Shown here piece by piece: positions 5,918 to 63,650 of a stretch of 64,000 nt of DNA. The translations under genes and the position numbers were made by a program. Position 1 is the first letter of the stretch. The number at the start of each line of letters is the position of its first letter. Below the pieces are notes generated by a model, which searched no databases, had not been told where the DNA came from, and was given only the letters and a program-made list of their open reading frames with translations. Origin of the DNA: Verrucomicrobiota bacterium (GTDB lineage: Bacteria > Verrucomicrobiota > Verrucomicrobiia > Limisphaerales > CANJXF01); NCBI GenBank assembly GCA_038214755.1, contig JBBQRQ010000006.1, positions 26,142 through 90,141 of the forward strand, given 5' to 3'.

Positions 5918-6011
5918 GGAGCGCGGACAGCCTTGTCCGCGTGTTTGGAAAGGACAAAACCCAGGCGTTTCCACTGCTTGAGATTCTCGCGGACAAAGCT
6001 GTCCGCGCTCC
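5918..6011. repeat. REP-like doublet (GGAGCGCGGAC...GTCCGCGCTCC family)
   Basis: Inverted pair between convergent genes; relatives at 14788/15326, 38610-38707, 46782-46849. Confidence 0.8.
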
Positions 6012-8483: not shown

Positions 8484-8591
8484 GTAGCGCAGGTTTGGAA
8501 CCTGCCGTATCGCAGGTTTGCAACCTGCTGGATGTCGCGACGTCCTGCCGGTTGCAAACCGGCGATACAGCAGCTTGCAAAGCTGCGCTAC
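8484..8591. repeat. REP-like element (GTAGCGCAG...CTGCGCTAC family)
   Basis: GTAG-terminated composite inverted repeat; copies at 13380-13531, 43039-43478 (interrupted), 52395-52509, 54658-54766. Confidence 0.85.
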
Positions 8592-13289: not shown

Positions 13290-13379
13290 ACGCCCTTATC
13301 GCATCGCGAAATAAAGCCACAACCGCGTTTGCTCGCGCAACGAATTTGTTTTGAGAAGCAAGAGTCGCGACAACGCAAC

Positions 13380-13531
13380 GTAGCGCAGGATTGCATCCTG
13401 CCGTATCGCAGGTTTTCAACCTGCGAGATGCCCTCAGAATCGGGGACTTTCGAATGCTAAAAGGCTTTCTCTACTTGCGACGTTCAGCCGGTTTCAAACC
13501 GGCGATACAGCAGGATGCAATCCTGCGCTAC
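13380..13531. repeat. REP-like element (GTAGCGCAG family)
   Basis: GTAGCGCAGGATTGCATCCTG / CAGGATGCAATCCTGCGCTAC perfect inverted arms. Confidence 0.85.
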
Positions 13532-13565
13532 GATTGCCTCCGCAAAAATTTCCAGCCTGCAAATT

Positions 13566-14787: not shown

Positions 14788-15349
14788 GGAGCGCGGACGT
14801 TCTTCGTCCGCGTGAATCCACACTAAGCCGAAAGGATTCAGTTGGACAAACGGCTCGCCCTCACCCCCACCCTCTCCCCCGAGGAGAGGGAACCCGCAAT
14901 CAGCACACGCAATCGGTCACTCAAAGGGAACTCTTCCAGCGCTGTATAACATTCCCCCCCATGAACCCTTGTAGCCGCCGACGTGAGGAGGCGGAACCTT
15001 GCCTGGCCCGCATTTCTCACCGTAAGGCTGAATACGACAGGAGCGCGGCATTTATGCCGCTTCAACTGTCGAACTGGAAAAATCTGTTCCACCGCTGGCT
15101 GCCCAGCGACGACGAAGCGGCATAAATGCCGCGCTCCGGCGAGCAATGCGGGCTAGCAGCCCAAATCCGCCTCCTAACGTCGGCGGCTACGGTTCAGGGG
15201 TTCAATGCGCGAAATTTTCGTTCGGGGAAATCTCTCCTTGGAGGAAAGGCACGAGGTGAGGTCGAGCGTTGCTTTGCGCTTAATCGTTCCGGCTAACCGC
15301 CGATTCTCCCGGTGAGAATGGAACTCGCGGACGAGAACGTCCGCGCTCC
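14788..15349. repeat. Nested multi-family REP cluster
   Basis: Six concentric inverted-repeat pairs (see findings). Confidence 0.88.
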
Positions 15350-17317: not shown

Positions 17318-20300
17318 ATGAGCGCCAAGCAAAAAATTTCTCTCGCAACTAACCCTGCCGATTTGCAACTCGCGTTTGATGTCGGTCACAGTTCCATCGG
17401 CTGGGGCGTGCTTCAAGCGGCGGGGCGAGAATCTTCGCAAGCCAAACTTTCTCCGGCTCTTTCCATCAATATTCTCGGCTGCGGTGCGGTAACATATCGT
17501 GCAGATGATTGCCTTGCCAGCGCACGGCGTGGCTACCGCCGTCAGCGCCGACACATCCGCTCCACGCGCCAGCGCATTGCCCGAATGAAAATTCTACTGA
17601 AACATCTCGGAACGTTGAGTGAAAAAGAATTGAATGCGCCCGGTTGCGCATGGCCGTGGCTGTTGGCCTCGCAGGTTTTAAGCAAAGGAAAATTGCTCAC
17701 ATGGCCGGAACTTTGGGATGTGCTGCGTTGGTATTCGCACAATCGTGGCTACGATGGAAATCGGCGTTGGAGTGCCGTCGAGGTCGAGGCGCAAAAAGAA
17801 GATTCGGAGAAAGAGGAAAACGCTCGAACATTGATGGGCAAGCATGGCACGCAGAGCATGGCAGAAACATTCTGCAAAGAACTTGGCGTCGATCTGTCCG
17901 GTAAAAAGAAATCTTCCATGAAGCGTTTCAAAGGTTTGAACGCGGCTTTCCCACGCGAAATCGTGGAAGGTGAAGTTCAAAAAATCCTACGCGCGCACTT
18001 TGGCAAATTAAAAGACGTGGATGTAAATCTCGAAAAGGTCTTGTTCACTGATTGGCGGGCGGTCCTCTGCTCTGATTTGAAGCTTCCCAACCGTTACCAA
18101 GGGGGTTTGCTTTTCGGACAACTTGTTCCGCGTTTTGACAACCGCATCATTTCCATTTGTCCGATCAGCGGAGGGAAAGTTCCATCCCGCAATTGTCCGG
18201 AGTTTCTGAATTTCCGATGGGCGATGCAATTGGCGAATGTTCAAGTCGCGCGATTTGGCGAGCAAAAACTTTCATGCCTCACTGCCAAAGAGCGTGTTGA
18301 ACTCGACAAACAGATGCGCGCCGTCGGCAGCATGACCGCGGAACAGTTCAAGAAAGCCGTGCGCGCCACCACCAGCGCGATTCGTGACAATCTGGACACG
18401 ATGCTCATGCACCCTGACGCCAAGGAAGCCTTGTTGCTTGATCCGATCCAAAAGCTCGTTTGCTCCGACGACCTCGAATCATTTTGGATACTGCTCCCAG
18501 TGCGTTTGCAAAAACGACTGCGCGGGCAATGCCGGCGCGGGAAAGTTTTTTCTCTCTCTCAAATTCGCGCGCAACTGGAATCACTCGGCGATGTCAGCGG
18601 GTTTGACATGGAATTGCAAAGCCAACTAGATGCCCGCAACACCAAAGGGAAAAAGAAAGACAAGCAAGTAACTCAGGAGGAACTGCTGCAACGTCACTTC
18701 CCGTCCAAGCCAATCAGACTGGATGGCCGCGCTGCTTTTGCCCGGCATTTACTTAAACAGGCTTATCAGGAAGTCCTTGCCGGCAAACATCCCAAAGAAG
18801 AAGGTGGTTGTCTATTCATCACCGAGGAAATTCGGCAAAAGCAGATGAACCGCGAGATTGCGGAGCAGACAAACAATCATCTTGTCCGCCATCGGCTTTT
18901 GATTTTGGAACGATTGCTCGGTGACATCATCAAGGAATACGCCACGGGCGACAAAAAGCGCATCGGCAAAATCACCATCGAAGTGAATCGCGACTTGCGG
19001 GAGATGTCAGGCAAGACGGCAAAAGCGAAAGCGCAGGACTTGGGATTACGCATCGCAAATCATCACGCAGTTACGGAGAAATTGGAAAAGGCCTTTGATG
19101 GACAACGTTTCAATGGCAAACCGATTCGCATTGGATACGGACTGATTAAAATGGGGCGTGTCGCCGAAGACCTCGGCTGGCTTTGTCCTTACACCGGCCA
19201 ACGGTTTGAACCGATTGATCTCGTGTCGCGGCGCGTGGACAAGGACCACATTATTCCGCGTTCAAGTCGTCCGTCCGATTCCTTGGATTCTCTCGTCATC
19301 ACCTATTCAGCCATCAATAAATGGAAAGGCAATCGCACGGCATGGCAGTTTGTTGAACAGGAACAAGGGAAGCCAATTCCCGATCTCCCAAATCTTTCCG
19401 TCATGACTTTAACCCGCTTCAAACAATTCGTTGAGGGTCTTGAAACATACAAAGGCCACGACGATGACAAGCGCCGGAAGAAGCGTCGGAAAGATTTAAT
19501 GCTGCTTCCGAAATATGAGGAAAAAGAATTTGTTCCGCGAGACCTGACGCAGACTTCGCAGCTTGTTCGGCTCGGCGCACAAGTGCTGAAGCGCGCGTTT
19601 GCCGATTGCAAAGAAAAACCCATTGTTGTTTCTCTGCCTGGCTCGGTCACAGGCGCAGTTCGCAAATCATGGAAGGTTCTTGGCTGCCTGGCTCTCGCCA
19701 ATCCGCAAGTGCTCGATGAAAACGGCGAAGTAAAAAATAAGACCGACATTCGCGAAATCACGCATCTGCATCACGCGCTGGATGCGTGTGTGCTTGGATT
19801 GGCTTCACATTTCATTCCGAACAACGGTCGGGTTTGGGAATTGATCGTAAGACGCAACTTGAGAGACGAAGAGCAAAAAGAACTCATGCCGCTTGGCGTG
19901 TTCGGCTTTGGCGTTGAGAAACGTTTTGGTCTTCGCGATTTAGATGACAAATTAAAAGAACAAATTTGCCAACGGCTCGCGGAGAAGCGCGTCGTGCAGC
20001 ATATCCCCGCGCGCATGGACGGTTTACATGTCGAGCAAAACACTTGGGGGGTGGTAGCTAAAAATCAAGATGGCACCGTGCTGCTTCGCCAGCGAATTCG
20101 CCAAGCGGACGGTTCACGGAAGAAGAAAGAGGTGCCTGAGAAAAAAATAAAATTACTCGGGTTTGCGCCTTCAAAAGGTGTTGGAAAGCTTGCGACTAAC
20201 AAGGGCGTGCTTGTCATCCCTGACAACTACGGTGTTGCCATTCTCGACCACGCGAAGGATGAAAAGGATAGATTTGTCATCATCCCTTGGCACATGGTTT

Positions 20301-20689
20301 ATGTTCGAATCTTCAAAGGGTTTAAAGACAAAGATGGCGAAATTTTAGAAAAAAGTCTCATTGAACGCAACGGCGGGAAGATGCCGCGCATTTTGCGAAA
20401 TGGCCAAATGGTTCAAATCATCGGCGGAACTTATAAGGGAGCTTGGAAAATTACTTCCATTAAGAACCAAAAGACCGGAATCAAATTAAACCTGGCACAA
20501 CCAGACACGGTGAACACTGAAGAAGAAGTGCTGGATTCAGAAAGTGGAAAGAAGATACGGAAAGTGCGGCCCGAATGCAGACACGAAGCGAGCCTTGCGT
20601 CAATAGTCAGCGGCGGGCTTGAGATTCTCGCACTACCCTTGACGGGCTTTCGTATTCAGCGGACTGAAACCAAAAAGCCTAAACGGTAA
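17318..20689 (+). CDS. cas9: Type II-C CRISPR endonuclease Cas9 (1123 aa)
   Basis: RuvC-I AFDVGHSSIGW, Arg-rich bridge helix ARRGYRRQRR, RuvC-II IEVNRD, HNH DKDHIIP...INKWKGNRT, RuvC-III HHALDA; followed by cas1-cas2 with no csn2 or cas4. Confidence 0.98.
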   Translation: MSAKQKISLATNPADLQLAFDVGHSSIGWGVLQAAGRESSQAKLSPALSINILGCGAVTYRADDCLASARRGYRRQRRHIRSTRQRIARMKILLKHLGTLSEKELNAPGCAWPWLLASQVLSKGKLLTWPELWDVLRWYSHNRGYDGNRRWSAVEVEAQKEDSEKEENARTLMGKHGTQSMAETFCKELGVDLSGKKKSSMKRFKGLNAAFPREIVEGEVQKILRAHFGKLKDVDVNLEKVLFTDWRAVLCSDLKLPNRYQGGLLFGQLVPRFDNRIISICPISGGKVPSRNCPEFLNFRWAMQLANVQVARFGEQKLSCLTAKERVELDKQMRAVGSMTAEQFKKAVRATTSAIRDNLDTMLMHPDAKEALLLDPIQKLVCSDDLESFWILLPVRLQKRLRGQCRRGKVFSLSQIRAQLESLGDVSGFDMELQSQLDARNTKGKKKDKQVTQEELLQRHFPSKPIRLDGRAAFARHLLKQAYQEVLAGKHPKEEGGCLFITEEIRQKQMNREIAEQTNNHLVRHRLLILERLLGDIIKEYATGDKKRIGKITIEVNRDLREMSGKTAKAKAQDLGLRIANHHAVTEKLEKAFDGQRFNGKPIRIGYGLIKMGRVAEDLGWLCPYTGQRFEPIDLVSRRVDKDHIIPRSSRPSDSLDSLVITYSAINKWKGNRTAWQFVEQEQGKPIPDLPNLSVMTLTRFKQFVEGLETYKGHDDDKRRKKRRKDLMLLPKYEEKEFVPRDLTQTSQLVRLGAQVLKRAFADCKEKPIVVSLPGSVTGAVRKSWKVLGCLALANPQVLDENGEVKNKTDIREITHLHHALDACVLGLASHFIPNNGRVWELIVRRNLRDEEQKELMPLGVFGFGVEKRFGLRDLDDKLKEQICQRLAEKRVVQHIPARMDGLHVEQNTWGVVAKNQDGTVLLRQRIRQADGSRKKKEVPEKKIKLLGFAPSKGVGKLATNKGVLVIPDNYGVAILDHAKDEKDRFVIIPWHMVYVRIFKGFKDKDGEILEKSLIERNGGKMPRILRNGQMVQIIGGTYKGAWKITSIKNQKTGIKLNLAQPDTVNTEEEVLDSESGKKIRKVRPECRHEASLASIVSGGLEILALPLTGFRIQRTETKKPKR

Positions 20690-20699
20690 CACTACCGTT

Positions 20700-20845
20700 T
20701 AGGCGTGGAATCAAGGCTAAGCTGAAAATATCAGTTATGTTGATGTTCATAACATGAATCTTCATTCACCAAAAAGACAACGCCGTGAAGGAGCGCTTTT
20801 AACGGCGCTCACCCCACGGCGAAGCTATCAAAGCAAGACCTTTTA
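20700..20845 (+). ncRNA. tracrRNA (ends approximate)
   Basis: Anti-repeat TGGAATCAAGGCTAAGC (20706-20722, 16/17 complementary to the crRNA repeat), followed by hairpins at 20721-20735, 20734-20753, 20755-20768 and 20781-20821, and TTTT at 20841-20844. Confidence 0.88.
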
Positions 20846-21058
20846 CTCGAATCGCCGAGAACTTCGACGCAAACTGACGTTGATAAAAACCGAATTTGTT
20901 ATTTCACCGCCAGTTGTTTGGTTCGTTTCCGAACACATGAACGTAGCGAATATTTTCATAGCCTCGCCAAGACAGGACACTGATACGCCTACAGACACAC
21001 AACGACAAGAAAATATTTGATATGAAATTGTGGATACATTTTTTTACACAAAACTGGC

Positions 21059-21979
21059 ATGTCCTACCATATCGTCAGCATAGACTCGCCGCAATGTTCG
21101 CTTAGTTGCAAAGACGGCCAGTTGACCTGCAAAGTCCCCGGCGAAAAGGACAAGTCCTTGCCGCTGGAAGATGTGGCATCAATTATTATCACCAGCTTCT
21201 CGGCAAATATTCATAGCCATCTCTTTCTCGAAGCCGCCAAACATGGCGTCGCCTTGATCATTTGCGAATCGTTCAAACCGGTCAGTCTCGTGCTTCCAGC
21301 GAATCGTTCCACTGATACGTTGCTCACTCGCGCCGTACTAAAACTGTCGCCGAAAACACGGCTGCAACTTTGGCAAAAAACCATTGACGCGAAATGCCAG
21401 AATCAATTATCGCTCGCCGAACACATCGCGCCCAATGACGAACGATTGGAAGGAATGCGCAAAACCGCCTTCGGAAAAAAGCCACACAAAGAAGCCATCT
21501 GCGCGAAAATATTCTGGCAAATTCTTGGACGCGTTCTTGATGAAGATGAGTTTGTCCGGGAACGTGCCGCAGGTGGTTTGAATAATTTGTTGAACTACGG
21601 ATACGCCGTTTTGCTTTCAACGGTTCTGCAAAAATTATTCGGTGTCGGACTCGATCCAACCTTCGGCCTCTCGCATGTCGCGCGCGAACGCAGCACACCG
21701 TTGGCTTACGATTTGATGGAGCCGTTTCGTCCGTGCGTCGATTGGCGCGTCATTCAATGGGTGAGAAAACATCCCGAAAATAAAGAATGGGAAGTGACGA
21801 AGGAATTTCGCGGCTGGGTAACGGGTTTTCCATTGGAGCGCATTGACTATCTCGATTTCACTTTGGAAATCCAAGGCTGCATCGAAGGGGTAATTCGCGG
21901 CTTCCGTCGCTCCGTCATGGAAAACCACGCGCGGAATTATAAACCATGGACACCGAGAAATTCAAAATGGGTTGGCTGA
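21059..21979 (+). CDS. cas1: Type II CRISPR-associated integrase Cas1
   Basis: LPLEDVASII, NNLLNYGYAVL, GLDPTFGLSH, LAYDLMEPFRPCVD. Confidence 0.97.
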   Translation: MSYHIVSIDSPQCSLSCKDGQLTCKVPGEKDKSLPLEDVASIIITSFSANIHSHLFLEAAKHGVALIICESFKPVSLVLPANRSTDTLLTRAVLKLSPKTRLQLWQKTIDAKCQNQLSLAEHIAPNDERLEGMRKTAFGKKPHKEAICAKIFWQILGRVLDEDEFVRERAAGGLNNLLNYGYAVLLSTVLQKLFGVGLDPTFGLSHVARERSTPLAYDLMEPFRPCVDWRVIQWVRKHPENKEWEVTKEFRGWVTGFPLERIDYLDFTLEIQGCIEGVIRGFRRSVMENHARNYKPWTPRNSKWVG

Positions 21980-22281
21980 TTGTTGCATTTGATTTGCCGG
22001 TCGTTGAAAAAAAACAGCGCAAGCGCGCGACTGATTTTCGCAACTTTCTTCTCGATGACGGCTATCAGATGATGCAATTCAGCGTTTATGCGCGAGCCTG
22101 TGTTTCGTTCGCGCGACAGGAAACTCACATCGAACGACTCAAGAAAAATCTACCGCCCGAAGGAAGCGTGCGCGCCATTTTCGTTACCCGCGCCCAATGG
22201 GAGCGCTCGCACGTAATACAGGGTTCTCCTGCTTCTGAAGTAAAAGCGGAAGATTTGCCAGAACAAATTCAGCTCTGGTAG
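21946..22281 (+). CDS. cas2: CRISPR-associated Cas2
   Basis: WLIVAFDLPV, FRNFLLDDGYQMMQFSVYAR, LPPEGSVR. Confidence 0.97.
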   Translation: MDTEKFKMGWLIVAFDLPVVEKKQRKRATDFRNFLLDDGYQMMQFSVYARACVSFARQETHIERLKKNLPPEGSVRAIFVTRAQWERSHVIQGSPASEVKAEDLPEQIQLW

Positions 22282-22294
22282 CTGTCCCTCGCGT

Positions 22295-22344
22295 GGCCTG
22301 CTTGCCCCGACTTTCCTCCGAAGGAAAATCGGCTCAAGCAGGCC
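22295..22344. terminator. Long stem-loop between cas2 and the array (convergent-transcript junction)
   Basis: GGCCTGCTTG...CAAGCAGGCC outer stem enclosing CCGA-C-TTTCCT / AGGAAA-A-TCGG. Confidence 0.55.
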
Positions 22345-22387
22345 GTTTACGCCTAAGGCATTTGCTTTGCCCGGTTTGCGCTTCGCG

Positions 22388-22687
22388 AGTCTGCGCCCCC
22401 CGGAATTGGAATCAAGGCAAAGCTACGCCCAGCACCATGAGGGTGCGTTCCTTAGTCTGCGCCCCCCGGAATTGGAATCAAGGCAAAGCTGCGTGAGAGT
22501 GTCCCCGCTAGCGCGCAAAAGTCTGCGCCCCCCGGAATTGGAATCAAGGCAAAGCTGCAGGTTAGAAAATAAAATTCCGGTGTTTAGTCTGCGCCCCCCG
22601 GAATTGGAATCAAGGCAAAGCGAGTCTGGACGGGCTCTCTGCCTAGTAAACAGTCTGCGCCCCCCGGAATTGGAATCAAGGCAAAGC
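22388..22687 (-). CRISPR. CRISPR array: 5 identical 36-bp repeats, 4 spacers of 30 bp
   Basis: Plus-strand repeat AGTCTGCGCCCCCCGGAATTGGAATCAAGGCAAAGC at 22388, 22454, 22520, 22586, 22652; minus-strand transcription inferred from complementarity to the plus-strand tracrRNA. Confidence 0.98.
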
Positions 22688-22793
22688 TAAAACCATCGGC
22701 GGGCGAGTCGCTGCAATATCGGGTTCAAGAAATCCTTCATTCCAAAATCAACCCTTCATTTAATCGGCAGCGACTCGCCCGCCGATGGTTTTA
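22688..22793. repeat. Perfect 27-bp inverted repeat abutting the array
   Basis: TAAAACCATCGGCGGGCGAGTCGCTGC (22688-22714) and its exact reverse complement (22767-22793). Confidence 0.95.
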
Positions 22794-22847
22794 AATTCTC
22801 CTCGCCTACAGCAGGTAGCGGATTAAGCAATACGCATTCACACTAAG

Positions 22848-23066
22848 TTAACGAAAGTCATCCGCGTTCAAGCCGCTGCCGCGCACAATGTTTTTCAATG
22901 TGCCAATGGGAATCGGTTTGCTGCCGTGCATTGGAACGATGACCTGTCGGCCATCTGGATGACGCCACTTTTGATGACTGCCACGTTGGTCGAGAAAAAT
23001 GAATCCATGACGACGAAGAACACGAACGACATCGTGCGCGTTGCACACCGGAAAATGCTGGCTCAC
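22848..23066 (-). CDS. hicA: HicA-family toxin
   Basis: LRRHGF...QRGSHQKWRHPDGRQVIVPMH...IPIGTLKNI; GTG start overlapping the hicB stop. Confidence 0.92.
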   Translation of the reverse strand: MSQHFPVCNAHDVVRVLRRHGFIFLDQRGSHQKWRHPDGRQVIVPMHGSKPIPIGTLKNIVRGSGLNADDFR

Positions 23067-23266
23067 GGCAGGACCACTTCCATCAGCTTGGCGCCTTCGC
23101 GCAACTCCACTGGCGACGGCGCGAACCATAGCGCCAATGCTTCCTTCGCATTGACCACGGATTCATCTTCCGTGTCGCCGGCCGATCCGCAGCCGGGGAG
23201 TTCGGGAAAAATCGCTGACCACCGTTTGGTGGTGGGATCGAACTCAATCAGCAATCGAAATTTCAT
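23063..23266 (-). CDS. hicB: Short HicB-family antitoxin (no DNA-binding domain)
   Basis: WSAIFPELPGCGSAGDTEDE...NAKEALALW. Confidence 0.9.
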   Translation of the reverse strand: MKFRLLIEFDPTTKRWSAIFPELPGCGSAGDTEDESVVNAKEALALWFAPSPVELREGAKLMEVVLP

Positions 23267-23365
23267 GCGACGCACCGTAATCGAAAACATTTTTATCGGC
23301 AAGCAAGTAGCTGCGGCATTGCGCAGCTACGCCATTGCGCAGGTGCCGGCGAAAAGTTTTGCGGC

Positions 23366-23393
23366 TTGAAGGGCGGGATTCTTATCATACAAT
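23366..23393 (+). promoter_or_regulatory. Putative promoter of the antitoxin-VapC operon (likely leaderless)
   Basis: TTGAAG-16 nt-TACAAT, 6 nt before the GTG start. Confidence 0.5.
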
Positions 23394-23399
23394 TGAAGC

Positions 23400-23657
23400 G
23401 TGGAAACTGTAATGACCGTCACAGATTTGGTGAGGGACACCTGCAAGGCCGCGACTCGCATGGTGCAGCGCGGCGATAAAATCACGATCAAGAGCGGGGA
23501 CCGAACCCTGTTCAAAGTGGTTCCCGCCGAAAACTACGAGGTGAAGATGACGCCCAGGCAATACAAGGCGTTCGTCAAAAGCATCGACGGGATGGCCAAA
23601 GGGTTTGATCCCGACAAAAGCCCGATCATTCAAATGCGCCTCCGGAGACGCCTGTGA
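23400..23657 (+). CDS. Phd/YefM-like antitoxin
   Basis: MTVTDLVRD...VQRGDKITIK; overlaps the PIN gene (GTGA). Confidence 0.7.
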   Translation: METVMTVTDLVRDTCKAATRMVQRGDKITIKSGDRTLFKVVPAENYEVKMTPRQYKAFVKSIDGMAKGFDPDKSPIIQMRLRRRL

Positions 23658-24094
23658 TTGTTTTTGCCGACACCAGTTTTCTTTATAGCAGCTATTTCCC
23701 GGACCAGTCGCGTCATGCAGATGCCGCCCGCCGTTTTTGGAAGCAGGGCGTTTCCATCAGCGTTAGTCCCGCCGTCGTGTTGGAGCTTCGGTTGGGAGCC
23801 ATCTACGACGCTAAAAACGAAACCGGGTGGGAATTATTTCTGCGCGACAAGCAGGCAAAAAAAATAAACGAGATTTCCGTGGAATGGGAAAAGCTTTTTT
23901 ACCGCTTCGAGCCAATCGCGCTGCAGCATCCTTCCAAACGGGTGGGACTGGCCGATGGCTTGCATGTTTTGGCCGCACTCCAGTCGGGGGCCACCCATTT
24001 TCTGAGTTTTGATTTTCGTTCTGGCCAGCGCGCCATTGCCCGCGCCGTGGGACTGACCGTCCTGCCCGAGCGCATGGCCGGCGAGTTCAACTAG
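23654..24094 (+). CDS. vapC: PIN-domain VapC-like toxin
   Basis: VFADTSFL, LADGLHVLAA, FLSFD..QRAIARAVGL. Confidence 0.85.
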   Translation: MIVFADTSFLYSSYFPDQSRHADAARRFWKQGVSISVSPAVVLELRLGAIYDAKNETGWELFLRDKQAKKINEISVEWEKLFYRFEPIALQHPSKRVGLADGLHVLAALQSGATHFLSFDFRSGQRAIARAVGLTVLPERMAGEFN

Positions 24095-38407: not shown

Positions 38408-38609
38408 GTTGGATTTGAAAAATTTTGTTGGGCGAGTATCGGGCGAGCGCCAAAACCCTTTCAAGTGAATTCGCGGAGGTCTCCCTCTCGCGCATTCCCG
38501 CCTCGAAATTCGTGGGCCAGCCGCTTGCTGAACTGCGCGACGGTCTAAGCCGGAACAAGGCAGTTGGGAAATGACGCCAAGCACGCCAATGAAGTTGCTC
38601 TGACGAATA

Positions 38610-38707
38610 GGAGCGCGGAATTTATTCCGCTTCAATGTGGTTCATCGTTTGGGGTTCGAGACCTGTAGGCCGAGATTACGTTGCAGCGGAATAAATTCCG
38701 CGCTCCT
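38610..38707. repeat. REP-like doublet
   Basis: GGAGCGCGGAATTTATTCCGCT / AGCGGAATAAATTCCGCGCTCC. Confidence 0.85.
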
Positions 38708-52359: not shown

Positions 52360-52557
52360 GTTCAAAGTTTAATGTTTAAAGTTCAAAGTTGGCCGTAGCG
52401 CAAGTTTGCAACCTGCCGTATCGCCGATTTGTAATCGGCATGGCCTCCCAATAGCGAGGCGTCTGCGGGTTGCAAACCCGCGATACTGCAGGTTGCAAAC
52501 CTGCGCTACCACGACCGGCAGACAACTTTGAACTTTGAACTTCAAACTTTGAACTTT
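52360..52557. repeat. Inverted heptamer arrays (AAAGTTC / GAACTTT) enclosing a REP
   Basis: Arrays at 52360-52390 and 52524-52557; REP at 52395-52509. Confidence 0.85.
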
Positions 52558-62212: not shown

Positions 62213-62273
62213 TCGAGAATTATTTACGCGTGAGGATGAATGAATCTCTAATTCGTTTGCATTCGGTATCTCA

Positions 62274-63650
62274 TTAGCACCGTGGCTTTAGCCCGGTGGA
62301 AGCGAGGGGAAAATGAGTCCCAGCCGTTTCAACGGCTTCGGTCGCTGGAGAAAAGCCGTTAAAACGGCTAAGATTTACGCCGCACGTTAACCACCGGGCT
62401 AAAGCCACGGTGCTAATGAGATAAAACCGAGAATTTAAATGCGTCTGTTCGGATTTATCATGCGCGGTGCGAATGAGGGTTGACCACCGGGCAAAAGCCG
62501 CGGTGCTAATGAGATGAGCGGGCGAATTGAGACGCGTCTGCCCTGATTTATCAGCCGGCTGTTCTTCTTTTTTCACCTGCACTTTCGAGCCGTCATGAAG
62601 TTTCGTTTGACCGGTCAAGACCACCGTCTCACCGGGATTCAATCCGGAATGAATTTCCTGGAAACCATTTTTAATTCTCCCCACCTGCACCTCGCGCGCG
62701 TGAGCAGTTCCATTTTCGACGACGAAAATTTTCGTGACCCCGGCGAAATTCATCACTGCATCGAGCGGGACAACTTGGGTGAAAACATTTTTTTCCAGAA
62801 TCAATTCCCCGCGCGCAAAAGTGTTGGCGCGCAATTTTCGTTCGGAATTTTGCACCAGCGCGCCGAAAGCAAACGCCCGCGTCGTGGTGTTGACTTGGGG
62901 GCTGATGAGAAAAACTTTGCCCTCAAATTGGTTTGTTGGAAAAGCATCAACAGTGAAGACAACCGGCTGCTCTTTTTTGACAAGACCGGCGTAACTTTCC
63001 GGCGCCTGGACGATGAATTTGAGAACCCCGTCGTTCACGAGGCGAAAAAGCGGCGTCCCGATTTTCATGTAATCGCCGACGCTGGCGATGCGCTCGGCAA
63101 TCGCGCCATCAAAAGGCGCGCGCACGTGCGAATGTTCCAGATTCAATTTCGCAATCACCAACGCCGCTTCGGCCGCTTTGATATCCGCTTCCGCTTGCCC
63201 CGCATCATTGATGGCTTTGTCCAATTCGCTCTGCGGAGAAATTTTCTCTTTTTGCAACGTTTGTGCCCGACTCAAATTTTGCTGAGCGTTCGTCGCGTTG
63301 GCGTTCGCTCGAGCGAGATTGGCTTCCGCTTGTTGGGCGAGCGCTTCGTAAGTCTTCGTGTCGATCAAGGCGAGTTCCTGTCCAGCCGTCACGCGATCGC
63401 CGAAATCCACTTTGGTTTTTTCAACCTGCCCTTCGACTTGCGCGGCGACCGTCGCTTCGTCTTTGGCAAAAAGTGTTCCGACGATCGGAAGAGTGCGATC
63501 CATTGGAATTGTTTTCACCGTCGCCACCGTCACAGGAATTGCGTCGTCACGAATCTGTTTTGCGTCTTTGACCGGTTCGCGTTTGGAGCACGAAACAAAA
63601 ATCAACAAGCTGGCGAGAAGCAACGGAACGATTCCGGAATGCAATTTCAT
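62274..63650 (-). CDS. RND periplasmic adaptor (MFP) with repeat-derived C-terminal tail
   Basis: Lipobox FVSC, lipoyl halves (VDFGDRVTAGQEL / VRAPFDGAI), GLNPGETVV. Confidence 0.92.
   Translation of the reverse strand: MKLHSGIVPLLLASLLIFVSCSKREPVKDAKQIRDDAIPVTVATVKTIPMDRTLPIVGTLFAKDEATVAAQVEGQVEKTKVDFGDRVTAGQELALIDTKTYEALAQQAEANLARANANATNAQQNLSRAQTLQKEKISPQSELDKAINDAGQAEADIKAAEAALVIAKLNLEHSHVRAPFDGAIAERIASVGDYMKIGTPLFRLVNDGVLKFIVQAPESYAGLVKKEQPVVFTVDAFPTNQFEGKVFLISPQVNTTTRAFAFGALVQNSERKLRANTFARGELILEKNVFTQVVPLDAVMNFAGVTKIFVVENGTAHAREVQVGRIKNGFQEIHSGLNPGETVVLTGQTKLHDGSKVQVKKEEQPADKSGQTRLNSPAHLISTAAFARWSTLIRTAHDKSEQTHLNSRFYLISTVALARWLTCGVNLSRFNGFSPATEAVETAGTHFPLASTGLKPRC

What the first reader, a model, noticed from the sequence alone, without database searches (positions are those of the whole stretch)
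22688..22793. Perfect 27-bp inverted repeat starts at the first base outside the array
Seen: the left arm begins exactly at the repeat boundary, and the arms are 27/27 complementary around a 52-nt loop. On the minus-strand pre-crRNA the arm next to the first repeat is the sequence that would become the guide of the extraneous crRNA. Established: type II crRNAs are spacer-repeat, so the first repeat makes a leader-derived extraneous crRNA, and leader structures that suppress it have been described. Inference: the hairpin sequesters that guide or presents it to RNase III. Alternatively the guide (GCAGCGACTCGCCCGCCGATGGTTTTA) targets the identical distal arm (followed by AATTCTCC) and autoregulates array transcription. 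A mundane alternative is a REP doublet or TA-flanked MITE, since each arm is itself an imperfect palindrome.
Basis: partly seen in the sequence, partly recalled or inferred. Interest (0 to 1): 0.7.

Follow-up and report, generated by a model that had tools for sequence, protein, structure and literature searches.

The report
Conserved hairpin cap on CRISPR array
A long hairpin-forming sequence sits at the outer edge of this bacterium's Cas9 CRISPR array, recurs next to related arrays in other bacteria, and most likely stops stray transcripts from turning the spare first repeat into a useless guide RNA.

Summary
Arms 22688-22714 and 22767-22793 are 27/27 complementary around a 52-nt loop, and the inner arm abuts the last base (22687) of a type II-C array read on the minus strand.

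It is not a REP or MITE. It is single-copy in its genome, whereas another palindromic element in the window has 39 further copies. No dispersed copies were found in 400 genomes of the phylum.

A homologous inverted repeat with a 17-27 bp perfect core sits at the same place in about 20 related Verrucomicrobiota arrays. The neighbouring genes differ in every case. The arms differ between loci but stay complementary: 24 of 49 pairs change on both sides.

The stem continues, with many G-U pairs, into about the first 9-17 nt of the first repeat. This holds only on the crRNA-sense strand, so the structure is RNA. These are the nucleotides that pair with tracrRNA.

Best reading (about 0.6): an RNA cap at the transcription-upstream, oldest end of the array. 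It would terminate or sequester incoming transcripts and so suppress the extraneous crRNA. Feussner et al. 2025 described this class for type II-C, but this version is far longer, alignable, and includes flank-repeat pairing that they did not find.

PAM-dependent self-targeting is not supported. No RNA data exist.

The parts
17318..20689 (+). cas9 (1123 aa)
   Evidence: HNH_4 and RuvC_III domains; ORF
20706..20722 (+). Putative tracrRNA anti-repeat. The tracrRNA body probably runs on to about 20830.
   Evidence: Direct-repeat family D2. Duplex with nt 1-17 of the minus-strand repeat inside a -34.9 kcal/mol interaction. The ends of the tracrRNA are not determined.
21059..21979 (+). cas1
   Evidence: Pfam Cas_Cas1, E 6.5e-35
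21946..22281 (+). cas2
   Evidence: Pfam CRISPR_Cas2, E 2.8e-18
22295..22344 (.). Imperfect 23-bp hairpin between the cas2 stop and the cas-proximal (newest) repeat, in the probable acquisition leader
   Evidence: I2, 87% complementary, 4-nt loop. Function not studied.
22388..22687 (-). CRISPR array: five identical 36-nt repeats and four 30-nt spacers; crRNA sense is the minus strand
22652..22687 (-). Extra repeat: first in transcription order, oldest, 36/36 intact. In the predicted fold its nt 1, 3-5 and 7-11 pair with the 5' flank.
22688..22714 (-). Proximal arm of the inverted repeat; this is the would-be guide of an extraneous crRNA
22715..22766 (-). 52-nt loop. It carries TTGAACCCGAT, a motif shared with genus relatives and, in related form, with other loci. 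It is not significantly structured on its own.
22767..22793 (-). Distal arm of the inverted repeat
22794..22806 (-). Anti-repeat-like 5' flank that extends the stem by pairing with the start of the extra repeat, on the sense strand only
22848..23129 (-). hicA-like toxin gene, co-oriented with the crRNAs. It ends 41 nt upstream of the paired flank and is a possible source of read-through.
   Evidence: Pfam HicA_toxin, E 4.7e-18
23063..23302 (-). hicB-like antitoxin gene
   Evidence: Pfam HicB_lk_antitox, E 4e-08

Best explanation
The inverted repeat is the core of a structured RNA 'cap' that belongs to the type II-C CRISPR cassette. It sits at the transcription-upstream, oldest end of the array. 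Transcripts that enter from outside (here from hicBA) would fold into a rod of roughly 40-50 bp. The inner 27 bp lock up the sequence that would otherwise become the guide of an extraneous crRNA. The outer, G-U-rich part pairs the 5' flank with the first 9-17 nt of the extra repeat, which are the nucleotides tracrRNA needs. The GC-rich stem is followed by a T-rich stretch (TTTTAGCTTTGCCTT), so it probably also terminates part of the incoming transcription. Genuine crRNAs would be unaffected because they start from -10-like promoters inside each repeat. What is shown: the anatomy, the conservation, the compensatory changes, and the strand bias of the pairing. What is inferred: termination, competition with tracrRNA, and any role of RNase III.
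For: A 22-27 bp perfect inverted repeat (13 bp plus a bulge in L151) ends 0-12 nt from the first repeat in 10 of 60 arrays of this repeat family that had at least 110 nt of flank. It is also present in 13 of 14 metagenome loci with 200 nt of flank. Those loci were selected only on the outer 7 nt of the proximal arm plus the repeat. In the alignment of 20 loci, 24 of 49 pairs change on both sides (98 cells). None of 500 shuffles reach this, and slid controls give 5-10 pairs. The outer helix onto the invariant repeat is 69.0% paired, against 37-54% when slid. It holds 67 G-U cells against 27 A-C cells, so it is biased to the crRNA-sense strand. The sense fold is more stable than the antisense fold in 18 of 20 loci, by 10.5 kcal/mol on average, and on average 14.4 of the first 20 repeat nt are paired. 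For G000 the energies are -87.4 and -75.4 kcal/mol. The upstream neighbour differs in every locus: hicA, nuoB-like, dnaG, pnp and a radical-SAM gene are co-oriented; aroC, GSDH and pfk are divergent. So the element travels with the array. The tracrRNA anti-repeat pairs with repeat nt 1-17. The 3' ends of the repeats look like -10 boxes: A32 and T36 in 66 of 68 distinct repeats. The extra repeat is intact in 10 of 10 arrays with the inverted repeat and in 34 of 48 without it (one-sided Fisher p 0.048; related genomes are not independent). This fits the idea that the hairpin and repeat decay are alternative solutions. An orphan single repeat (L164) has lost the distal arm. The class of mechanism is published for type II-C (PMC12080349).
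Against: There are no RNA data: no RNA run is listed, so no transcript, 3' end or cleavage site is known. The simple terminator scan did not call the element, because its loop limit is 3-8 nt. A 52-nt loop and a 27-bp stem are atypical for intrinsic terminators, and the T-tract is modest (5 T in 12 nt in G000; mean 6.0 in the 20 loci). The inner core is almost free of G-U pairs, which is unusual for a stem selected only as RNA and leaves room for a DNA-level constraint or for template-switch correction. Three of the eight loci whose upstream gene was identified have a divergent neighbour, so read-through from that gene is not an issue there. Only a minority of related arrays carry the element (10 of 60), and the closest genus relatives lack the long form. 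The structure used for the pair counts was derived from the same sequences.
Confidence: 0.6

Rival explanations
1. A DNA-level element. The perfect palindrome would be read as double-stranded or cruciform DNA, for example as a binding site for a dimeric protein or as a boundary or recombination element of the array, and not as RNA.
For: The inner 22-27 bp are perfect Watson-Crick in nearly all loci. In G000 the core pairs equally on both strands. The outer arm motif GCGGCGGG is conserved in sequence.
Against: The stem extension and the few imperfections in the core (L158, L169) are G-U on the sense strand only. The inner halves of the arms vary freely as long as they stay complementary, which is not how a protein site evolves. 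In type II-C, acquisition takes place at the other end of the array (PMC12080349 Introduction; PMC12477760 passages), so a role in integration is unlikely.
Confidence: 0.12
2. A neutral relic. The array end (flank plus part of the repeat) was once duplicated in inverted orientation, and quasi-palindrome template switching has kept it perfect, with no function.
For: The distal flank looks like a decayed inverted copy of repeat nt 1-18. Perfection of the core could come from templated correction (recalled mechanism, not tested here). The element is patchy among close relatives.
Against: The element is retained across at least six divergent arm types and unrelated genomic contexts. The decay of the flank is biased towards G-U on the sense strand (67 against 27), where neutral transitions would give about 1:1. 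The similarity stops at about the stretch of the repeat that pairs with tracrRNA (about nt 18 against nt 1-17).
Confidence: 0.1
3. An ordinary, possibly bidirectional, terminator of the neighbouring genes (hicBA on one strand, read-through of the cas operon and array on the other), with no specific link to ecrRNA.
For: In G000 hicA ends 54 nt upstream of the inverted repeat (41 nt upstream of the paired flank) on the same strand. Both strands carry T-rich tails after the stem in G000 and in the group-1 loci.
Against: The element keeps its place at the array while the neighbouring gene changes in every locus, and three neighbours are divergent. The group-2 loci lack a T-tract on the antisense side. 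The pairing with the repeat is not explained.
Confidence: 0.08
4. Self-targeting autoregulation. A crRNA derived from the flank, with the proximal arm as its guide, would direct Cas9 to the identical distal arm and control transcription into the array.
For: By construction an identical protospacer exists in the distal arm in every locus. RNase III is encoded and could shorten the guide.
Against: The sequence after the distal-arm protospacer imitates the start of the repeat, which by the logic of self-avoidance should not be a PAM (inference). The guide is buried in a 27-bp stem. No PAM could be derived. There are no RNA data.
Confidence: 0.05
5. A REP doublet or TA-flanked MITE that happens to lie beside the array.
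For: The window is rich in palindromic repeat families. In G000 the arms start and end with TA.
Against: The element is single-copy in G000: the only full match is itself, and the other hits are 14-27 nt with E of 0.47 or more. A control element at 13379-13532 has 39 further copies among the 40 of 161 candidates that were scored. Only one 30-nt partial match was found in 400 other genomes of the phylum, and it is not at an array. The L053 version gave two chance partial matches; in these searches only 2 candidates per genome were scored. The arms alone do not fold.
Confidence: 0.03

Closest known systems
Structures upstream of type II-C arrays that counteract the extraneous crRNA: a Rho-independent terminator and a guide-sequestering hairpin, tested in Campylobacter jejuni NCTC 11168 (Feussner et al. 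2025, PMC12080349; Introduction, Results and Discussion read)
   Same: The position is directly upstream of the extra (first-transcribed, oldest) repeat of a type II-C array. The hairpin includes the 25 nt that would be the ecrRNA guide. A U-rich stretch runs into the repeat. The hairpin appears to be an alternative to mutation of the extra repeat.
   Different: The published helices are 8-12 bp and were found as a statistical enrichment, not as an alignable family. Here the core is 22-27 bp and perfect, the loop is 35-65 nt, the element is homologous across about 20 loci with compensatory changes, and the stem extends into the repeat itself. The paper states that no flank-repeat hairpin was found in type II-C. 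Verrucomicrobia are not mentioned in its main text or in the one supplement held.
Type II-A leader-repeat hairpin of Streptococcus pyogenes (Liao et al. 2022; known here only through its summary in PMC12080349)
   Same: Upstream RNA pairs with the extra repeat and would keep tracrRNA off it.
   Different: In type II-A the partner is the acquisition leader, which also holds the array promoter, and the extra repeat is the newest. Here the flank is the old end and no leader promoter is expected.
Leader-repeat hairpin that blocks ecrRNA in Cas13 systems (EMBO J 2026, PMC13187072; search listing and start of abstract only)
   Same: The same logic of hiding the extra repeat.
   Different: A different CRISPR type with no tracrRNA. 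The paper was not read beyond the listing.
Dispersed palindromic elements (REP/MITE-like) of the same genome, for example window 13379-13532
   Same: Paired inverted arms of 24-46 nt with a spacer of tens of nt, in intergenic DNA.
   Different: Those are multi-copy (39 further copies) and unrelated in sequence. The CRISPR-adjacent element is single-copy and tied to arrays.

Membership tests
Type II-C upstream anti-ecrRNA structure (Feussner et al. 2025) | Lies within 180 nt upstream of the first-transcribed (extra) repeat of a type II-C array | tested here: met
   The arm starts at 22688, one base after the repeat. Orientation. The locus is cas9-cas1-cas2-array.
Type II-C upstream anti-ecrRNA structure (Feussner et al. 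2025) | The helix involves the ~25 nt that would form the ecrRNA guide | tested here: met
   All 27 nt next to the repeat are paired.
Type II-C upstream anti-ecrRNA structure (Feussner et al. 2025) | Hairpin plus U-tract that qualifies as a Rho-independent terminator | tested here: inconclusive
   The tail is T-rich (5 of 12 in G000; mean 6.0 of 12 in 20 loci). The consensus scan did not list it because of its loop limit of 3-8 nt. RNIE is not available.
Type II-C upstream anti-ecrRNA structure (Feussner et al. 2025) | Lowers downstream transcription or ecrRNA activity | not testable with these tools
   No RNA run is listed. This needs a reporter, TXTL or Term-seq.
Type II-A style leader-repeat hairpin (Liao et al. 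2022) | The upstream RNA base-pairs with the extra repeat itself | tested here: met
   By prediction only. In-register pairing is 69.0% against 37-54% when slid. Between 9 and 17 of the first 20 repeat nt are paired in the MFE folds. For G000.
Type II-A style leader-repeat hairpin (Liao et al. 2022) | The partner is the acquisition leader that carries the array promoter | tested here: not met
   cas2 lies at the opposite end in 49 of 54 arrays and never on this side. Degenerate terminal repeats are mostly on this side. The literature places type II-C acquisition at the last repeat.
REP / MITE | Many dispersed copies in the genome | tested here: not met
   Single copy, with a positive control. 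Not found as an element in 400 genomes of the phylum.
REP / MITE | Each arm is itself a stable palindrome (REP), or the element has target-site duplications (MITE) | tested here: not met
   The arms fold no better than shuffles. The TA ends are part of the stem in G000 and are absent from the group-2 loci.
Type II-C CRISPR-Cas locus | cas9, cas1 and cas2 only; tracrRNA anti-repeat; 36-nt repeats; array convergent with the cas genes | tested here: met
   No further ORF with a Pfam hit lies between cas9 and the array. csn2 and cas4 were not searched for separately.
Any Rfam family | Match to a curated covariance model | tested here: not met
   Only a chance snoRNA hit at E 4.8 elsewhere in 20000-24000.

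The most novel reading that the evidence does not exclude
The cap may be more than a passive plug. Its perfect 24-27 bp core could be kept perfect because it is an RNase III substrate. Cleavage would leave a short-guide RNA joined to the extra repeat. That RNA would program Cas9 to bind, not cut, the identical distal arm. The result would be a self-contained feedback roadblock that rides with the type II-C cassette and shields it from transcription wherever it lands.
Probability: 0.05. Interest if true: 0.85.

Novelty: new variant of a known kind. Interest (0 to 1): 0.55.

Why it matters
Until now, structures that suppress the extraneous crRNA in type II-C systems were known as a statistical enrichment of short helices and from one tested Campylobacter example. 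Here there is a defined, alignable RNA motif with compensatory changes. It moves with the CRISPR cassette and also covers the tracrRNA-binding part of the extra repeat, a feature reported as not found in type II-C. This gives a clean system for testing how Cas9 arrays are insulated. It also gives a marker for array orientation and array ends in metagenomes, and a natural part for building compact Cas9 arrays without a spurious first guide. The near-perfect core next to a G-U-rich outer stem is an unexplained contrast worth testing.

Tried and rejected
RNA evidence: no RNA holder is listed for window 21900-23400. Read laying was not used because only DNA contigs were on offer.

PAM: BLAST of the spacer block against the phage records gave only four chance 27-nt hits spanning a repeat-spacer border. 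Viral-contig scans with typed spacers were not run, so the PAM remains unknown.

Spacer sharing, to fix the polarity of the arrays: none was found among 829 spacers except between duplicate records (L032/L079, L055/L056).

Duplex energy of 100 nt of flank against repeat nt 1-20, compared with shuffles: this test was badly designed for the loci with the inverted repeat, because the pairing flank lies beyond 100 nt. It showed no general signal in the 48 arrays without the inverted repeat (median z -0.33; 5 with z below -2). Flank-repeat pairing is therefore not claimed for the family as a whole.

Promoter scan: no sigma-70-like site lies between the arms. This is weak evidence only.

Rfam: no family matched.

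Acquisition-leader role: rejected, because type II-C acquires at the other end.

Earlier findings of this scan: nothing near the site. A word query failed on a format limit and was not repeated.

The weak hits in family genomes G004 and G009 were not used.

Full report
WHAT IS THERE. The window holds a type II-C CRISPR-Cas locus:
- cas9 (17318-20689), with HNH and RuvC domains
- cas1 (21059-21979)
- cas2 (21946-22281)
- an array of five identical 36-nt repeats with four 30-nt spacers (22388-22687)
. A stretch in the cas9-cas1 gap (20706-20722, plus strand) repeats the end of the array repeat in direct orientation. As RNA it would pair with nt 1-17 of the minus-strand repeat. The inverted repeat is exactly as described: 22688-22714 and 22767-22793, 27/27 complementary, a 52-nt loop, starting one base after the repeat. 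The 27-mer occurs nowhere else in the window, and none is expected by chance. Beyond the element lie a hicA/hicB pair on the minus strand and a PIN-domain pair on the plus strand.

NOT A DISPERSED REPEAT. In the window's own genome (5.1 Mb, 175 contigs, 97% complete) the 106-nt element matches only itself. The other hits are fragments of 14-27 nt with E of 0.47 or more. This is a meaningful negative. The window is full of other long inverted repeats (28 pairs). One of them, 13379-13532, has 39 further copies at 83-93% identity among the 40 of 161 candidates that were scored. Another, 15040-15137, has one further full copy and several arm copies. In 400 other genomes sampled from the phylum, the G000 element gave one 30-nt partial match that is not at an array. 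A related element from locus L053 gave two chance GC-rich partial matches. In these searches only two candidates per genome were scored. The arms alone fold no better than shuffled sequence, so they are not REP-like.

THE SAME ARCHITECTURE NEXT TO RELATED ARRAYS. An 18-nt piece of the repeat was used to scan one genome per species. Most are Verrucomicrobiota. Of 81 arrays with at least two repeats, 60 had at least 110 nt on the side in question. This count includes G000, two genus relatives and two duplicate records. Ten of the 60 carry a perfect inverted repeat of 22-27 bp (13 bp plus a one-base bulge in L151). Its inner arm ends 0-12 nt from the first repeat, and its loop is 35-52 nt. A metagenome scan required only the outer 7 nt of the proximal arm plus the repeat. 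It gave 18 loci, all at the same end of an array. Of the 14 with 200 nt of flank, 13 have the inverted repeat, with cores of 17-27 bp. The exception, L164, is an orphan single repeat that keeps the proximal arm but has lost the distal one. The gene beyond the element is different in every locus examined. Co-oriented neighbours are hicA (G000), a NuoB-like gene, dnaG, pnp and a radical-SAM gene. Divergent neighbours are aroC, a GSDH-family gene and pfk. One neighbour has no Pfam hit. At the other end of the array, cas2 lies convergent in 49 of 54 arrays and is never on the inverted-repeat side. The element therefore belongs to the CRISPR cassette, not to its neighbours. The two genus relatives (G008, G001) lack the long form. 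They share a short flank motif (CTGAACC(C)G) with the G000 loop, and G008 has a much shorter, imperfect inverted repeat around it.

COVARIATION AND STRAND. The arms share an outer motif (GCGGCGGG) but differ in their inner halves between loci, and the two arms change together. In the 20-sequence alignment, 24 of 49 pairs show changes on both sides (98 cells). No shuffle in 500 reaches this, and controls with the partner slid by 1-3 columns give 5-10 such pairs and 38-47% pairing, against 81.9% observed. One caveat applies: the structure was taken from these sequences, and related loci are not independent.

The stem does not stop at the perfect core. In register it continues onto the invariant first repeat. 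This outer helix is 69.0% paired, against 37-54% when slid. Nine of its pairs vary on one side only, switching between A-U and G-U or between C-G and U-G. Over the 20 outer pairs there are 202 Watson-Crick, 67 G-U, 27 A-C and 94 other cells. G-U on the crRNA-sense strand is A-C on the other strand, so the excess points to a single-stranded structure of the sense strand. The few imperfections next to the cores (L158, L169) are also G-U in sense, read from the printed arms. Folding agrees: the sense strand is more stable in 18 of 20 loci, by 10.5 kcal/mol on average, and 9-17 (mean 14.4) of the first 20 repeat nucleotides are paired with the 5' flank. For G000 the energies are -87.4 kcal/mol (z -7.2) for sense and -75.4 kcal/mol for antisense. 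Only the sense fold extends the stem, pairing 22794-22806 with repeat nt 1, 3-5 and 7-11. These are the nucleotides that the anti-repeat would bind.

WHICH END OF THE ARRAY THIS IS. Feussner et al. 2025 (PMC12080349; Introduction, Results and Discussion read) state that type II-C arrays acquire spacers at the last repeat and that each repeat carries a promoter. The first-transcribed repeat is therefore the oldest and is the 'extra' one. An extraneous crRNA then arises only from transcription that enters from outside. Passages of PMC12477760 say the same for Neisseria: promoters are embedded in the repeats, and the leader sits at the other end. The data here fit this. Degenerate terminal repeats lie mostly on the inverted-repeat side (14 of 48 arrays without the inverted repeat). 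cas2 lies at the other end. The last six bases of the repeats read C-A-n-A-(A/C)-T, with A32 and T36 in 66 of 68 distinct repeats. That is the signature of a -10 box (calling it a promoter is an inference).

MECHANISM. Feussner et al. list three ways in which type II-C systems may neutralise the extra repeat: mutations in it, a Rho-independent terminator upstream, and a hairpin that hides the ecrRNA guide. They also say that no flank-repeat hairpin was found in type II-C. The element here fits the second and third ways and adds the feature they did not find.

My model is a two-step one. When a transcript enters from outside (hicBA in G000), the GC-rich core forms as soon as the proximal arm emerges, while the polymerase sits on TTTTAGCTTTGCCTT. 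This should terminate part of the transcripts. Transcripts that read through then close the outer helix, which hides both the would-be guide and repeat nt 1 to about 17 from tracrRNA. Genuine crRNAs, which start inside the repeats, never contain the cap.

In line with the idea of alternative solutions, the extra repeat is intact in 10 of 10 arrays with the inverted repeat and in 34 of 48 without it (one-sided p 0.048, related loci not independent). Termination, competition with tracrRNA and RNase III cleavage are all inferred. RNase III is encoded.

WHAT DOES NOT FIT, AND THE RIVALS. The loop is long and the simple terminator scan does not list the site. The core has almost no G-U pairs, unlike the outer helix. 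This leaves room for a constraint at the DNA level, or for correction of quasi-palindromes by template switching (a recalled mechanism). Three loci have a divergent neighbour. Most relatives lack the element.

The conserved AATTC(A/T)CC or GCTyCGCC-type flank after the distal arm is accounted for as the pairing partner of the start of the repeat. It also resembles the repeat, which should not be a PAM. The PAM itself could not be derived. The promoter scan found none there, which is weak evidence.

VERDICT. The feature is real and conserved. It is best read as an RNA cap against extraneous crRNA and incoming transcription. It is a new, much larger and alignable variant of a mechanism class published in 2025.

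Noticed in passing
window 13379-13532 (also 8484-8591 and 52395-52509): A palindromic element of about 154 nt (arms of 46 nt, 89% complementary). It has 39 further copies at 83-93% identity across contigs of the same genome, counted among the 40 of 161 candidates scored. This is a genuine MITE/REP-like family.
   Followed up: partly
window 15040-15137 (related arms at 38609-38707 and 5918-6011): A perfect 24-bp inverted repeat with a 50-nt loop, whose arms are themselves palindromic (GGAGCGCGG...CCGCTTC). There is one further full copy on contig C75 and several single-arm copies.
   Followed up: partly
window 62267-62423: A perfect 33-bp inverted repeat with 91 nt between the arms. Not examined.
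   Followed up: no
window 22282-22387: The gap between the cas2 stop and the newest repeat is 110 nt by the script's count and holds a 23-bp imperfect hairpin (22295-22344). Most relatives have only 34-67 nt here. This is the probable acquisition leader.
   Followed up: partly
window 22848-24094: Two toxin-antitoxin-like pairs lie directly beside the array: hicA/hicB on the minus strand, and an 85-aa ORF plus a PIN-domain protein on the plus strand.
   Followed up: partly
L164 (metagenome contig, locus coordinates about 200-435): An orphan single repeat that keeps the proximal arm and the loop-end motif but has no distal arm. This may be decay of the cap once the array is lost.
   Followed up: partly
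L062: An array that carries the inverted repeat but has no cas1 or cas2 within 1482 nt downstream. Its last repeat is degenerate (33/36).
   Followed up: no
L091, L089, L048, L049 (5' flanks of arrays without the long inverted repeat): Other, non-homologous 14-bp hairpins or T-runs lie just upstream of the extra repeat. This suggests that the same need is met by different sequences.
   Followed up: no
all arrays (repeat positions 31-36): The 3' ends of the repeats keep C-A-n-A-(A/C)-T while positions 19-30 vary. This fits promoters embedded in the repeats, as in Neisseria and Campylobacter.
   Followed up: partly
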